A stretch of DNA of 64,000 nt from Leucoraja ocellata (Eukaryota), in contig JAWMAR010000252.1 of assembly GCA_036785375.1 (NCBI GenBank), positions 2,232,001-2,296,000 of the forward strand, given 5' to 3'. Shown in pieces: positions 12,001 through 62,100 of this stretch. Each line of letters starts with the position of its first letter. Position 1 is the first letter of the stretch. Made by a program: the position numbers.

Positions 12001-14230
12001 TTGGGGCTGGGCAATGTTTAGAGAGGATTTGTGTGTGGTGGGTGTTGAGTGCCTGGCCCACTGCTGAGGGTGGCGATGGAGGCAGATACATTGTGCTGTT
12101 TAAAAGACGTTTGGATAGGTCACCTGGATATGCAGGAAATGGAAGGTATGTTTTATGTACTGGCAGATAAGGATTGGTCTTGGCATCATGTTTGGCACAG
12201 ACATAGTGGGTTAATGGACCCGTTCCTGTGCTGTATTGTTCTCTGTTCCTTTTGAGTAAAATTTACACTTTTGTTGTTGGATCTCAATGAAAATATGAAG
12301 TAAAACAGATGTGACATCAAACTGGCTTTTTGCAATGTAAAGTTCATGAAATGATTTGTGATGCATGGCTTTTGTATACATTGTGGCCAATGATCTACCA
12401 GATACATACTAAAAAGGGGGTCCCAGGGTAATTGGCAAAAGAACCAAAGGCAAAATTAAAATATAAATGACTTTAACCACAAATTTGCAATAATTTGGAA
12501 TGTGCTGTTGGTAAGAGATATAATTTATGAGCATATTCAAGTTTACCTTTTAAAATGAAATTACAAAGTCAGATAATTACCTAAAACCTGCTGAATTTAA
12601 TGTACTACCCAATGTCCTTGGTCTCCGCTAATACACTGACCCTTTAATCTGCATTAACCGCCCTCCATCCCATCACAATGATGTCTTCTCAGTTGACTTA
12701 CTGGACTGTCAACCCTTCATTTCAAACCTTCCCTTACCCTGCATAATAGCACCATTCTGATCCCTTCCCTTCCCTTCCATCTCATTTCCTCCTACTACCA
12801 CACATACAACATCTGCTCGACAGTTAATATGTAACCACAGTGTCAGTAAATCTCTAATTCGAACCTCCCTCAATATTGTGATAGACCTATCAAGCTGACA
12901 TGAAGGTCAAATCTACAATACCCAATTTCTTGCAGCCAAGGCCTTGGGTTACATCTGAATATTTATATAATGGAAGGATGATCATAATAACCATTACCAC
13001 TCACATATTTTCCATTCTACTGCACCTTTTAATAAAAAATCTTGTTGACACCCTGTTCAACTCTGTTTTCCACAGTTATTTTCTGCCAGTTTCGCTATAT
13101 TGTTAAATAATGTTGATATTGTTAAATTTTGCAGCTCCCTACCCTTTTCACAAATTCCCTTTAAACTGATGGCAGTGCTTCTAAGTACTATTTAATATTG
13201 TCCTTGTACAAAGAAATGTACAATTACATTTACATTAACATAAACAGTTAAATTTACTCTTGGGTCCTAATGCCATATGCGTAATTGAAAGATGAGGCAC
13301 TGTAACTTACACTGAGTACTGAACTTTATTGGAACAGTGTTGGAGATACAGAGTGTAAATGTAGGGAACATTCAAATAACAGACACTTTAATTCTCATCT
13401 TCTATATTACTGAAAACCTGATCTTGACCGCATTTGGCCCACTGTGCTGCGATTTCCGAGAGAACGCCGCCACCTACGGCCGTCATTTTTGGCCACCTCG
13501 CTCAGCGCCCCCCTCCGCCTTCTGGGACCAGAGGATTTTTCCCATCGATGAAAAATCAGAGATATATTAATGTTTTAATAAAATTCCCCATTCTCTCTGC
13601 TGCCCCCGCTGGAGGCAAGGGGGAGGGGAGAGGGACTATAAAACCCGGAAGTGTCGTGCTTCACACATTCTCTGCCAGACCCAGGAAGCGAGTTGAAACC
13701 ATATGGCAATAAATTGTGCCCATCTTCTTCCGATGAAATTACTAATATTGAGTGCCAATTTGCTGACCATCCTAATTGGCCACTAAGTGCATCGCCAGAT
13801 CCTGTGACCTGCATTAAAGACATAGGATTGATCTGCACGTTCTCTGGAAATGCTATTCGCCAATTTTGTAGTGACTACAGAATTAGAGTGTGCTGCGAGC
13901 CAACTGAGACTACAACTGTCCCCACGACTACAACTGAGTCTACCACCAGTCCCACGACTGGTGAGTGATACCTTCTCCAGTAGTTGTTAACAGTCATTTT
14001 AAAAGAAGGACAATAATGTCCAAAGTATGCCCAGCTTGTGCTGGAATTTAACCAAATACAAATGTTGCTGCTGAATGTTGCGATGATTATAAATTTGCAA
14101 TGACTTTTGTTGAAGTTATTCCACAACATCTTTTAATTTCTGCAATATATGCTGATTTTGTTACTACTCTCTCAAACGTGCCTTACTTCAAGTTGAATAT
14201 AAAGGACATGTATGCATTTGTTTACAGAAG

Positions 14231-14277
<47 letters not shown>

Positions 14278-59087: not shown

Positions 59088-59119
<32 letters not shown>

Positions 59120-62100
59120 GAGACAACCACAACTGAGTCTACCACCAGTCCCACAACTGGTGAGTGACACCATCTCCAGTAATTTTTAACAGTCATTTTA
59201 AAGGACCGACAACAATGTCCAAAGTATGCCCAGCTTGTGCTGGAGTTGCACCACATACAAAAGTTACTACTGAATGCCGTGTTGATTATAAATTTGCAGC
59301 GGCTTTTGTTGAAATTATTCCACAACTTCTTTTAATTTATGTAATATATGCTGATTTTTTTACTACTCTCTCAAATGTGCCTTTCTTCAAGTTGAATATA
59401 AAGGGCATGTATGCATTTGTTTACAGAAGAAACAACAACAACAGCCACGACCACCACAGAATCTACTACCACTCCTACAACTGGTAAGTGATAACTTCTC
59501 TCAATGTACACTCATGTTTTTTTTTAATTACAACAAAAAGTGACAGCAGTATATCTTGTGGCCAATGGCAAAGAACAGAACAATCTCTCCACTGCTCTGA
59601 ATAATAACAATAATTACAATAACATTTCACAGGAAATGTTTTTTAGCTGTATAGTTTATTCACTGAAGATATGAATAAGTATGTCACGGTGTTCCCTACA
59701 TTTCAGTTGAATAAAAAGGACATGTATGCATTTGTTTACAGAAGAAACTACAGTCCCTGAAGAATGCTTCTGTGATTCAGATCCACCAAGAAGGGTAATT
59801 GTTTCACCCAATTGGGCAGATTTGATGTGGTAGTAAATTTACACTGGAAACTTTGCCTTTAAAATGTTGCCTTTAATTTACCTAATATCTTATTGTAGTT
59901 ATCAGAATGAATTGCAATTTGTAATGGCAATGTCTAGGCTTTGCCTAAGGCTTTATGACACACTTTACATCCTCAACATTCTATTGAACTCTGAGCTGAA
60001 TTTCCAACCATATTTCTTCATGTCAATAAAGCACTACCTTCTGAAACTAATATCATTACACATCTCTTCACCTATTTCACTATGTTGCCCCCAAACCTTT
60101 CATATACTCTTCTGCTTCTCCAGAGTTGACTCTTCCATTATTTATCCACTTGGCCTTGTGTTCTTCCATTGAATTTTGCTTCTAGCTTCTGCTTCTAATA
60201 TCCTAGCCTATGCCACTTTGGGTTCATCCAACACCTTTATGTAGTTTTACCCAAATTGTCTACCAATGTCTCAGTCTTAAAATTCTCACCCTCCCTGCCT
60301 CACCCCTCCATAATCTTAACCAGCACCGCAGGTGTTCAAAAACTCTGATCTCTCATTATTGACGGTTGGATTTTCATCCATCAAATAAACACAATTTTGG
60401 TTCTCCATACATTCCATCATAATAAGAGGCGTTTATGGTTCAGAGAAACCAACACGTGATGCCCTTTCATATTCAAATTGTTTAGTTGGAAACTAATGCA
60501 ACCAAACCACCCTAAAATATGCTTTTTCATATGCAGTAACATGCATAATTCAAACAACATGGAAAATGTGTAAGCTTTTGATGTATACATTTTTTGTCAT
60601 CGTTCCCTAGTGCAATGAAACATGGAAAGAGAACTGTGCAACCCTTACTTGTGTTAAAGACGAAATGTTCAAAATTGAACATGTTGCCTGTGCATTACCT
60701 GTGAAACCAAGATGTTACAATGGGTTAAAACCTGTCAGAGTTGAATCTCAAGATGGTTGCTGTTCAAAGTGGGATTGTGAATGTAAGAATTGATTCAGAT
60801 TCATCTTTCTTTTGCCAGTGGAAAAGTAATTTTCTTCATTTTTGTTTTTATTGTACATGACCTAAATGGATTTTTTTTTTAGATGATTGTCAGATATGGG
60901 GAGGACAACATTATCGTACCTTTGATGGGATATTCTATAACTTCTTTGAAAATTGTACACATATTCTCGTGCAAGAAATTATCCCAAAATACAATTTTAC
61001 GGTGATACTCGATAATTATTATTGCACATCATCAGCGGCTAAATCCTGTCAACAAACATTAATTATCCATTACCAAGGAAATGTCATATATTTAACAACC
61101 GGACATCAACCTAGTGTAAGTAATGTCTTCATATATATTTATGCATAGTTATATGTCCATTTCACAAACCCGTTTCCATACTGGCATTCTCACATTTCAA
61201 TGTATATATTTTTTCCTTTGCTATGTGATATTTAATAATATTAGGCTTTAAATGTTTCCTCACATGTTAGATACACGTGAAAAAAAAAACCTTTAGTGTT
61301 GTTTTCATATTTGGTCTTTGCCACACTCCTAGGAGAGCAATAATATTTTACAGTGTCATTGGTAAATATAAATTGAAGCATTATTGAATGGCTCCAGGTA
61401 ATCCTTACATGGGACAGATTTTCTAGAGGTAAATGAAAATCAAGATAAAACTACAGATAGTGTCAATGTAAAACAAAAACAGAAAGTGCTGAGCAGGTTA
61501 GGCTACTTGGCCTCTAAACAAGATGATGAAGAGTTGTCAGGATGACTGGGAGTCAGACAAAGTGTAGTTGAGAAAGGGCACAAGATAGCTCTCTGAACTA
61601 CTCTTTGTCTCACCTTCTAAGGTACATTGTAAGGACCTTGTACTGTATTCCATTCTCCTAGTTCTTCCGTCTTCATCATATTTTCACAAATGATGACACA
61701 TTCCATACAGTCACCTCTAATTAGAGGTCAATGTTCGTACCACTGGGGTGCAAAATGCCCAAGTGAAATATGAGATGCTGCTCCTCCAATTTACGGTTTA
61801 GGGTGGTCCTCACTCTGGCCATGTTAGTCTTGTCCTCACCTTCCAGCCCCCCAATCTCCACATTCAACAGAAAATTATCTACAATTAATGTTACCTTGAA
61901 AGAGATTTCACCACCAGCCACATCTTCTCCTTTCCTCCCCTTTCAGCATTTTCAGGAACCATTCCTTTAGTGACTCCATGACCACTATTCTGCTCCCTCC
62001 CAAGCCATCTATTTATTATGGAATTTCCACACTCGACCATAGGTGATCCACCACTCGTCCTGTCACCTATTCCCTGCCTACCACCAATGGACCAAAACAG

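What the first reader, a model, noticed from the sequence alone, without database searches (positions are those of the whole stretch)
13679..59483. Mucin central region built as a genomic cassette array: 77 symmetric phase-1 exons (14 CysD + 63 PTS) in two tandem macro-repeats
Seen: every CysD exon (348 nt; 282 nt for A1) and every PTS micro-exon (45-90 nt) is AG..GT, phase 1-1 and a multiple of 3. They are embedded in 7 x 4.25 kb and 7 x 2.45 kb units whose introns are nearly identical. Known: human MUC2, MUC5AC and MUC5B encode CysD plus PTS mainly within a very large central exon. Inference: any subset of exons can be skipped, or whole units gained or lost by unequal crossover, without frameshift. 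That makes it a tunable system for CysD number and spacing (roughly 130-140 aa of PTS in A versus about 80 aa in B), and so potentially for mucus mesh size.
Basis: partly seen in the sequence, partly recalled or inferred. Interest (0 to 1): 0.85.

Follow-up and report, generated by a model that had tools for sequence, protein, structure and literature searches.

The report
Skate mucin built from 77 cassette exons
The middle of a skate gel-forming mucin gene is a tandem array of 77 short, frame-neutral exons rather than one giant exon; this layout is real but has precedents in chicken mucins and in gene models of other sharks and rays.

Summary
Window 13679-59483 (+ strand) carries 14 CysD exons and 63 Thr-rich micro-exons. 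All 77 of 77 have AG..GT, a length divisible by 3 and an open phase-1 frame. They lie in 7 units of ~4.25 kb and 7 of ~2.45 kb. Flanking exons are D3-type and D4-type mucin exons, so this is the centre of a MUC2/MUC5-class gene of a skate relative.

A gene model from the skate Rhinoraja joins the same exon-sized peptides in the same way. Stingray ortholog models have one CysD; the window has 14. That fits gain of whole units by unequal crossover.

Corrections:
- "CysD A1" is a truncated remnant without the first Cys and the WxxW motif.
- Each B unit also holds a dead exon.
- The chain needs three more exons outside the given span.
- Every junction gives Glu or Val.

The multi-exon mucin centre, length control by splicing and the pore-size idea are already in print for chicken Muc13 and MUC2. 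Tuning by splicing is untested here. Verdict: new member of a known kind, moderate interest.

The parts
1819..7818 (+). Upstream D3-region exons (TIL, VWD, C8 and following Cys-rich exons) of the same mucin gene
   Evidence: Pfam finds TIL, VWD and C8. tblastn of P0001 residues 761-1185 gives pieces of 64-95% identity, 88-95% in the D3 core exons. PDB hits are MUC5B, MUC2 and MUC5AC D3. The last exon ends ...GAAGAATG|GTAAAG at 7818 in phase 2.
8634..8665 (+). 32-nt exon, phase 2 to 1, encoding (C)TCHHGITTCE(R). It sets the phase-1 frame that the array keeps.
   Evidence: Found by motif in translation and read: cag|T ACA TGC ... GAA A|gtaagt. It corresponds to CTCNHGITTCKR of P0001.
11298..11390 (+).
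   Evidence: AG..GT, open in phase 1. 73% identical to P0001 residues 1188-1224.
13679..13960 (+). Truncated CysD exon A1 (282 nt). It lacks the first Cys and WxxW. Its possible acceptor ctctgccag lies in non-repeat DNA.
   Evidence: Pfam matches only profile positions 25-88 of 88.
13692..43454 (+). Macro-repeat A: 7.0 units of ~4.25 kb. Each holds a CysD exon plus micro-exons a1-a6.
   Evidence: 5-28 substitutions between units. One search gives the exon table. Searches give the two ends.
17872..18219 (+). CysD exon of unit A2 (348 nt), example of the six full A-type copies (22125, 26379, 30630, 34885, 39130 are the other starts)
   Evidence: Pfam PF13330 E 4.9e-13, profile 1-88 of 88.
18487..20727 (+). 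Micro-exons of unit A2: a1 18487-18570, a2 19158-19208, a3 19534-19584, a4 19706-19765, a5 20167-20223, a6 20683-20727
   Evidence: Introns are 121-587 nt, then 1397 nt before the next CysD exon.
43369..43716 (+). Junction CysD exon (B1): A-type 5' part, B-type 3' part
   Evidence: Diagnostic sites switch from A to B between 43434 and 43455. Alignment.
43455..59499 (+). Macro-repeat B: about 6.5 units of ~2.45 kb counted from the A/B switch. It holds seven CysD exons (B1's 5' part is A-type) and seven sets of micro-exons b1-b3.
   Evidence: 5-48 substitutions between units; neighbours tend to be more alike..
46490..47215 (+). Micro-exons of unit B2: b1 46490-46540, b2 46817-46888, b3 47156-47215
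46690..46740 (+). Dead homologue of exon a3 in unit B2: no AG acceptor, GG in place of the GT donor. The same place in all 7 B units yields no candidate exon.
   Evidence: sequence. (open Thr-rich frame remains). (no passing candidate).
59742..59794 (+). Closing exon, 53 nt, phase 1 to 0: EETTVPEECFCDSDPPRR. Its acceptor context is the same as for a1 and b3.
   Evidence: It corresponds to ...EECFCDTNPPRK|CNETW in stingray models P0126 and P0127.
60611..61118 (+). First C-terminal exons: CNETWKENC... (60611-60782) and the start of VWD4 (from about 60883)
   Evidence: Pfam VWD E 6e-14. PDB hits to MUC2 C-terminal D4 constructs. 81-82% identity to P0126 and P0127.

Best explanation
This is the central glycosylated region of a MUC2/MUC5-class gel-forming mucin gene of a skate relative. 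It is encoded by two adjoining tandem arrays of exon cassettes, not by one large exon.

Each cassette holds a 348-nt CysD exon followed by Thr-rich micro-exons: six in A units and three in B units. All exons are phase 1-1, all end in G, and all begin with AA or TG/TA.

Most likely history (inferred): a few ancestral phase-1 exons were copied within a unit. Whole 4.25-kb and 2.45-kb units were then amplified recently by unequal homologous crossover, with some gene conversion.

The default product (inferred) includes most or all exons. That gives about 2,800 aa with 13 complete CysD knots, spaced first by about 138 aa and then by about 83 aa of O-glycosylated linker. The number and spacing of CysD are set mainly on the evolutionary and population scale, by unit copy number and by (ACA)n slippage in exons.

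The symmetric phase is the precondition that let the array grow. It also allows in-frame exon skipping, but whether skipping is used is not shown.
For: Shown.
- 77 of 77 exons pass AG, GT, length divisible by 3 and an open phase-1 frame. Junction codons are GAA at 63 joins and GTG or GTA at 13.
- Units are near-identical, introns included. Variable columns are 9 of 699 in exons against 44 of 3558 in introns for A, and 22 of 531 against 64 of 1923 for B.
- Every unit has private differences, 5-48 substitutions between units.
- Exonic indels: 9 of 9 are multiples of 3, all in AAC/ACA runs. Intronic indels: 1 of 7.
- The A-to-B switch lies inside a CysD exon and keeps the frame. I read this as the trace of a homologous exchange.
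- The CysD exons match PF13330 over the whole profile and solved CysD domains of MUC5B, MUC5AC and MUC2, E 1e-9 to 3e-5.
- D3 exons lie upstream and D4 exons downstream.

Comparative.
- The model P0001 (named mucin-6-like, Rhinoraja longicauda) is 88-95% identical in the D3 core exons. Its centre is CysD plus 6-7 peptides of micro-exon size, each starting with E, including near-copies of a5 and a6.
- Stingray models P0126 and P0127 match the window's D4 exons at 81-82%. Their centres have about 25-30 peptides of 16-17 aa and a single CysD.
- CysD copies inside one protein model are identical in 3 of 3 (Rhinoraja), 13 of 15 (Heterodontus P0006) and 3 of 4 (Scyliorhinus P0160). This points to species-specific amplification.
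Against: - There are no transcript or read data for this organism. Splicing of the micro-exons is inferred from sequence and from computational gene models of other species, whose own evidence I could not see.
- Exons vary as much as introns within the arrays.
- dN/dS between A-type and B-type CysD is 1.2-1.9, from about 32-38 differences. So no purifying selection can be shown inside the array.
- The a2 and b1 exons have AAG acceptors, and a2 has a GTGGGT donor.
- A1 is truncated, and its left edge falls at the same exon coordinate as the A-to-B switch. I cannot explain this. It could mark a rearrangement or an assembly misjoin.
- Copy number in such an array is what assemblers get wrong most easily.
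Confidence: 0.75

Rival explanations
1. Regulated cassette splicing. The animal uses exon skipping to make tissue-specific or condition-specific mucins with different CysD number and linker length, and so tunes mucus mesh size.
For: - The frame and the junction codon are neutral to any skip.
- Splice-site strength differs between exon types: a2 has GTGGGT, a2 and b1 have AAG acceptors.
- Three models named isoforms X2, X33 and X39 of one Scyliorhinus canicula mucin-2-like gene differ only by blocks of 77-252 aa of PTS or CysD+PTS in the centre, with 27 mismatch columns elsewhere.
- Many elasmobranch and bird mucin-2 entries carry high isoform numbers.
- Chicken MUC2 has one verified in-frame PTS splice variant (passages of PMC3549977).
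Against: - There is no transcript evidence for this locus.
- Isoform models in near-identical repeat arrays can come from ambiguous short-read mapping.
- Symmetry is expected from the growth of the array alone.
- The chicken study saw no large-scale alternative splicing on infection.
Confidence: 0.2
2. Assembly artefact in part. The exon types are real, but the number of units, or the left boundary at 13691/13692, is wrong (expanded, collapsed or misjoined repeat).
For: - The A block is exactly 7.0 units. It starts and ends at the same coordinate inside the CysD exon, within 20 nt.
- The first CysD is cut there. The a6-like exon and the CysD 5' part that precede the first CysD in the Rhinoraja model are missing from the window.
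Against: - No two units are identical. Units differ by 5-48 substitutions and by (ACA)n length.
- B units tend to be more alike when adjacent, as real tandem arrays are.
- The window has no N.
Confidence: 0.12
3. Decaying array. The amplified cassettes are no longer under selection and the gene is on its way to being a pseudogene.
For: - dN/dS is at or above 1 between A and B CysD.
- Exon and intron variability are equal.
- A1 is truncated, and each B unit holds a dead exon.
Against: - All 77 exons are open with intact splice dinucleotides.
- All 8 Cys and the WxxW motif are kept in 13 of 13 full CysD copies, despite about 25% amino-acid divergence between types.
- Flanking D3 and D4 exons are open and 81-95% identical to ortholog models.
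- The units are too young for the tests to have power.
Confidence: 0.06

Closest known systems
Chicken MUC2 (PMC3549977; passages read)
   Same: A gel-forming mucin whose PTS region with interspersed CysD is spread over many exons: at least 64 exons in the gene, with repeats over exons 32-45. An in-frame splice variant lies within the PTS region. The authors remark that more CysD may mean smaller pores.
   Different: The repeat is 69 aa and there are 4 CysD. Phases and junction codons did not appear in the passages I saw. There is no report of two nested macro-repeats of near-identical 2.5-4.3 kb units or of 45-90 nt micro-exons.
Chicken Muc13 (PMC1552070; passages read)
   Same: [quoted passage not shown] The authors explicitly propose that alternative splicing could control PTS length.
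   Different: It is a transmembrane mucin with a SEA domain, no CysD and no VWD assemblies.
Human MUC2, MUC5AC, MUC5B central exon (PMC9712336 passages; PMC6269512, PMC13345508 and PMC11344006 abstracts in the listing)
   Same: The same domain content (PTS stretches interrupted by CysD), between D3 and D4. Length varies between individuals.
   Different: One exon of about 6-11 kb. Variation arises by repeat changes inside the exon. No introns means no cassette skipping.
Elasmobranch mucin gene models (P0001 Rhinoraja; P0006 Heterodontus; P0160, P0159, P0158 Scyliorhinus; P0126 Hemitrygon; P0127 Hypanus)
   Same: The same gene family, and for P0001, P0126 and P0127 the same gene by D3/D4 identity. 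Their centres are made of the same kinds of exon-sized peptides. CysD copies are homogenised within a species.
   Different: They are protein models only. I could not see their loci. CysD number is 1 in the stingray models, 3 in the truncated Rhinoraja model, 15 in Heterodontus and 14 here.
Titin PEVK exons (recalled, not from any call)
   Same: What it may work like: a long run of short, symmetric, duplicated exons that encode an unstructured spacer, where exon inclusion sets a mechanical property.
   Different: An unrelated protein, intracellular. Differential splicing is documented there and not here.

Membership tests
CysD domain (Pfam PF13330, Mucin2_WxxW) | Match to the family profile above its curated cut-off, over the whole profile | tested here: met
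   A2 copy: 50 bits. B2 copy: 56.3 bits. Cut-off 22.4. Both cover profile 1-88 of 88. A1 covers only positions 25-88 (37.2 bits).
CysD domain (Pfam PF13330, Mucin2_WxxW) | WxxW motif and conserved cysteines | tested here: met
   WSPW or WSHW and 8 Cys are present in 13 of 13 full copies. They align with solved MUC5B and MUC5AC CysD. A1 lacks WxxW and the first Cys.
CysD domain (Pfam PF13330, Mucin2_WxxW) | CysD three-dimensional fold | not tested
   No structure was predicted. Only sequence similarity to solved CysD chains 8oer_I, 8ov0_A and 8ck2_A, E 1.4e-9 to 1.1e-7.
Gel-forming mucin of MUC2/MUC5 type | D3 assembly (VWD-C8-TIL) before the PTS region | tested here: met
   Pfam finds TIL, VWD and C8 in exons 1777-6030. 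PDB matches MUC5B residues 994-1074 and MUC2 residues 965-1045. D1 and D2 lie outside the window.
Gel-forming mucin of MUC2/MUC5 type | PTS stretches interrupted by CysD | tested here: met
Gel-forming mucin of MUC2/MUC5 type | Fourth VWD (D4) after the PTS region (absent in MUC6 and MUC19) | tested here: met
   VWD at 60861-61148, E 6e-14. Matches MUC2 C-terminal constructs 7qcn and 7qcu. The source name 'mucin-6-like' for P0001 therefore does not fit.
Gel-forming mucin of MUC2/MUC5 type | C-terminal VWC and cystine-knot domains | not testable with these tools
   They lie beyond the end of the window.
Multi-exon mucin domain (as in chicken Muc13 and MUC2) | PTS repeats each carried by their own exon, separated by introns | tested here: met
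   63 micro-exons with AG..GT and introns of 121-1398 nt. The same peptides are joined in ortholog models.
Multi-exon mucin domain (as in chicken Muc13 and MUC2) | Transcript evidence that the exons are spliced as predicted | not testable with these tools
   No RNA data and no eukaryotic genome or transcript collection were available.
Single-exon mucin VNTR (human type) | The whole PTS/CysD region in one uninterrupted reading frame | tested here: not met
   Reading through 56 of the 77 donors meets a stop within two codons (GTGAGTGA, GTAAGTGA, GTGAGTAA). ORFs end just after each exon.
Alternatively spliced cassette array | All cassettes symmetric, so any subset keeps the frame | tested here: met
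   77 of 77 are phase 1-1. Junctions read Glu or Val.
Alternatively spliced cassette array | Several isoforms observed | not testable with these tools
   Only indirect evidence: isoform models of a catshark mucin differ by PTS or CysD+PTS blocks.

The most novel reading that the evidence does not exclude
The array is a combinatorial splicing system. Weak-site exons (a2, b1) and whole CysD cassettes are included or skipped by tissue or by challenge. One gene would then make a graded series of mucins with different cross-link density. Skates would have gained this by amplifying CysD cassettes that their stingray relatives keep as a single copy.
Probability: 0.15. Interest if true: 0.7.

Novelty: new member of a known kind. 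Interest (0 to 1): 0.38.

Why it matters
Recent abstracts still say that all mucins carry one large repeat exon (abstract of PMC13345508 in the listing). This locus is a clean, fully sequenced counter-example in a gel-forming mucin.

It has a very regular grammar: phase 1-1 exons with a universal Glu or Val junction. Orthologs differ widely, from 1 to 14 CysD. That makes cartilaginous fish a natural experiment on how CysD number and linker length shape mucus. It also gives a locus where copy-number change and splicing can be told apart with long reads.

It is not a new principle. The multi-exon layout, the splicing idea and the pore-size idea are in print for chicken.

Tried and rejected
- TRF found nothing, because its longest period is 500. 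Self-BLAST was used instead.
- tRNA and Rfam scans of the window were empty, so there is no sign of a tRNA-derived SINE at the left boundary.
- The ORFs that I took by eye for reverse-transcriptase remnants (1-533 +, 9257-9597 -, 1444-1731 -) gave no Pfam match at E 0.01. Nor did the A-specific intron ORF at 16405-16854. I do not name them.
- No CysD 5' part or a6-like exon was found between 11391 and 13700. The only match there is a 655-nt interspersed repeat.
- The ortholog of this very gene in the window's own species was not found among proteins of 203-5000 aa. The best D3 match stays P0001.
- PMC6451114 (MGAM2 Thr-rich domain) turned out to be a single exon and is no parallel.
- Paper searches for phase or symmetry of mucin exons found nothing. 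One search returned 0 papers. Searches gave only the chicken papers as precedents, so I found no printed description of this layout in cartilaginous fish. Subscription journals and supplements were not searchable.
- Left out: the joined spliced model was neither built nor searched. Searches used single exons or the database protein P0001.
- No structure or complex prediction was run. The domain identity was not in doubt, and no binding claim is made.
- The genome-contig collection holds only bacteria and archaea and was not used.
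Full report
**What is there**

The window has no N. A self-comparison shows two adjoining tandem arrays on the + strand.
- Array A has period ~4259 nt and runs from 13692 to 43850. It is 99.2% identical over 25,946 nt at one-unit offset.
- Array B has period ~2451 nt and runs from 42803 to 59499. It is 98.4% identical over 14,264 nt.
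- A and B share about 1 kb at ~89% identity around one large exon.

TRF missed the arrays because its longest period is 500. Units cut at the large exon measure 4239-4255 nt (A2-A7) and 2452-2456 nt (B1-B6). No two units are identical. A units differ by 5-28 substitutions and B units by 5-48. B units tend to be more alike when adjacent.

**The exons**

- The large exon is 348 nt in 13 copies. It translates to a CysD domain. Pfam PF13330 matches at E 4.9e-13 (A type) and 5.3e-15 (B type), over profile positions 1-88 of 88.
- The best solved relatives are the CysD domains of MUC5B (E 1.4e-9), MUC5AC and MUC2.
- All 13 copies keep WSPW or WSHW and 8 cysteines.
- Between CysD exons lie Thr-rich micro-exons: six per A unit (a1 72-90, a2 51, a3 51, a4 60, a5 57 or 54, a6 45 nt) and three per B unit (b1 51, b2 69-75, b3 60 or 57 nt).
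- With the 282-nt first copy this makes 14 + 63 = 77 exons. 77 of 77 have AG before, GT after, a length divisible by 3 and an open frame in phase 1.
- 70 of 77 donors are GTRAGT. The seven a2 copies have GTGGGT. The a2 and b1 exons have AAG acceptors.
- Introns are 121-1398 nt. Summed coding length is 8502 nt, or 2834 aa.
- Linker length between CysD domains comes to about 138 aa in A and about 83 aa in B.

**Additions and corrections to the observation**

1. Every exon ends in G. Every PTS exon starts with AA, and every CysD exon with TG or TA. All 76 joins, and any join after skipping, read GAA (Glu) or GTG/GTA (Val).
2. Reading through 56 of the 77 donors meets a stop within two codons. The region cannot be one long exon.
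3. "CysD A1" (13679-13960) is a remnant.
   - The repeat begins at 13691/13692, inside the exon.
   - What precedes it is unrelated DNA that happens to offer ctctgccag as an acceptor.
   - The copy lacks the first Cys and WxxW. It matches only the last 64 profile positions.
4. Each B unit keeps a dead homologue of a3 with no AG and with GG for GT.
   - A 32-nt exon at 8634-8665, phase 2 to 1.
   - A 93-nt PTS exon at 11298-11390, phase 1-1.
   - A 53-nt closing exon at 59742-59794, phase 1 to 0, encoding EETTVPEECFCDSDPPRR. It leads into CNETWKENC... at 60611.

**Which gene, which organism**

- Upstream exons are TIL, VWD and C8. They match D3 of MUC5B, MUC2 and MUC5AC.
- Downstream exons start a VWD that matches MUC2 C-terminal constructs. 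With D3, CysD/PTS and D4, this is a MUC2/MUC5-class gel-forming mucin.
- A search with one CysD exon found a single longer protein, P0001, named mucin-6-like [Rhinoraja longicauda].
- Its D3 part is 88-95% identical to the window's D3 core exons. I take the window for a skate relative and P0001 for the ortholog.
- The name "mucin-6-like" does not fit a gene with CysD and D4.
- Stingray models P0126 (Hemitrygon akajei) and P0127 (Hypanus sabinus) match the D4 exons best, at 81-82%.

**Independent support for the exon model**

P0001 ends in ...STGE, which equals read-through of a GGTGAG donor, so it is a truncated model. After D3 its centre reads as follows:
- a near-copy of exon 11298-11390;
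- then EETSTVTSTSISSTT, which is a6;
- then a CysD;
- then 6-7 peptides of 13-21 aa, each beginning with E, including EKTTTTATTTTESTTSPTT, which is a5;
- then a6 and the next CysD. This pattern occurs three times.

That is the splicing pattern predicted from the window. These are computational models, and I could not see their transcript support. The look-up that might have shown more was unavailable.

**How the array came to be and how it varies**

- Within the arrays, exons vary as much as introns: 9 of 699 against 44 of 3558 columns in A, and 22 of 531 against 64 of 1923 in B. The units are young copies.
- Exonic indels are multiples of 3 in 9 of 9 cases, all in AAC/ACA runs (poly-Thr). Intronic indels are multiples of 3 in 1 of 7.
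- The change from A type to B type lies inside a CysD exon, between 43434 and 43455, and keeps the frame. I read it as the trace of a homologous exchange.
- Stingray ortholog models have about 25-30 alternating 16-17 aa PTS peptides and only one CysD, just before the closing peptide. The truncated Rhinoraja model has 3 CysD. The window has 14.
- CysD copies inside one protein model are identical in 3 of 3 (Rhinoraja), 13 of 15 (Heterodontus, 160-aa period) and 3 of 4 (Scyliorhinus). In a tree the window's A and B copies group with each other and with the other batoid copies.

Together this supports amplification and homogenisation of whole cassettes by unequal crossover, lineage by lineage.

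**Splicing as a tuning device**

The frame and junction rules allow it, but nothing here shows it. Indirect hints exist.
- Three isoform models of one catshark mucin-2-like gene differ only by central blocks of 77-252 aa of PTS or CysD+PTS.
- Many elasmobranch and bird mucin-2 entries have high isoform numbers.

Such models can also arise from ambiguous read mapping in repeats. Symmetric phase is also what any tandemly amplified coding exon must have in order to survive, so it is no evidence of purpose.

**Selection**

Between A-type and B-type CysD, dN is 0.11-0.14 and dS is 0.07-0.10, a ratio of 1.2-1.9. Flanking intron divergence is 0.07-0.10. With about 32-38 differences this cannot be told from neutrality. 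All 8 Cys and the Trp motif are nonetheless kept. I read this as a conserved core with a free or diversifying surface, held with low confidence.

**Unexplained**

The left edge of the A block (13691/13692) and the A-to-B switch (43434-43455) fall at the same place in the CysD exon, within 20 nt. The A block is therefore exactly 7.0 units. No CysD 5' part or a6-like exon lies upstream of it, although the Rhinoraja model has both. A recombination-prone site, an old rearrangement and an assembly misjoin are all possible. Only reads can tell.

**What is known**

- The multi-exon alternative is already in print. Chicken Muc13 has one PTS repeat per exon, and the authors proposed length control by alternative splicing (passages of PMC1552070).
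- Chicken MUC2 has at least 64 exons, with PTS repeats and CysD over exons 32-45, one in-frame PTS splice variant and the pore-size remark (passages of PMC3549977).
- My searches found no description for cartilaginous fish and none of exon phase in mucin arrays. Supplements and subscription journals were out of reach.

**Limits**

- The joined spliced model was neither built nor searched. Only single exons and database proteins were used as queries.
- No eukaryotic genome, read or transcript collection was available. Ortholog loci, copy-number polymorphism and splicing all stay unchecked.

**Verdict**

The structural reading is right, and unit gain is supported by comparison. Tuning by splicing is open. 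The layout is a new, very clean member of a kind already known from chicken mucins and already implicit in shark and ray gene models. Interest is moderate.

Noticed in passing
13691/13692 and 43434-43455: The left edge of the A block and the A-to-B switch fall at the same coordinate of the CysD exon (within 20 nt, motif GTTGAAA). The A block is therefore exactly 7.0 units and the first CysD is cut. It could be a recombination-prone site, an old rearrangement or a misjoin.
   Followed up: partly
CysD exons, e.g. 17872-18219 against 45822-46169: dN/dS between A-type and B-type CysD is 1.2-1.9, and the exon is slightly more diverged (10-11%) than the flanking introns (7-10%). All 8 Cys and WxxW are still kept. 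Too few differences for a test.
   Followed up: partly
12565-13219 and 3785-4440 (opposite strands): A 655-685 nt interspersed repeat, 80% identical, sits in two introns of the gene. It is probably a transposable element. It was not identified.
   Followed up: no
about 19296-19471 (unit A2; the same place in every A unit): A self-complementary stretch of about 176 nt (79% complementary) lies in the intron between a2 and a3 (unit coordinates 1425-1600). It could be a small inverted-repeat element.
   Followed up: no
20377-21158 (unit A2; the same in other A units): About 780 nt are present in A units but absent from B units. They hold exon a6, which resembles a3. The rest has no Pfam match.
   Followed up: partly
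1-533 (+), 1444-2040 (-), 9257-9780 (-): Open frames that looked to me like retrotransposon remnants gave no Pfam match at E 0.01.
   Followed up: partly
P0001 (Rhinoraja longicauda model), last residues: The model ends in ...STGE. That equals read-through of a GGTGAG donor, so it is truncated inside the array. Its source name 'mucin-6-like' does not fit a gene with CysD whose window ortholog has a D4.
   Followed up: yes
Hit lists: Bird mucin-2 entries come in long isoform series. Accipiter gentilis has 3586, 3591, 3782, 3787, 3978, 4174 and 4334 aa, in steps of about 196 aa. Manacus and Tympanuchus reach X50. This suggests cassette-wise variation in models of bird MUC2 too.
   Followed up: no
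Start of every PTS micro-exon, e.g. 18487, 19534, 46817: With the G of the preceding exon, the micro-exons begin GAAGAAAC, GAAAAAAC or GAAAC. Purine-rich GAA runs are known splicing enhancers (recalled, not tested). They may help these very short exons to be recognised.
   Followed up: no
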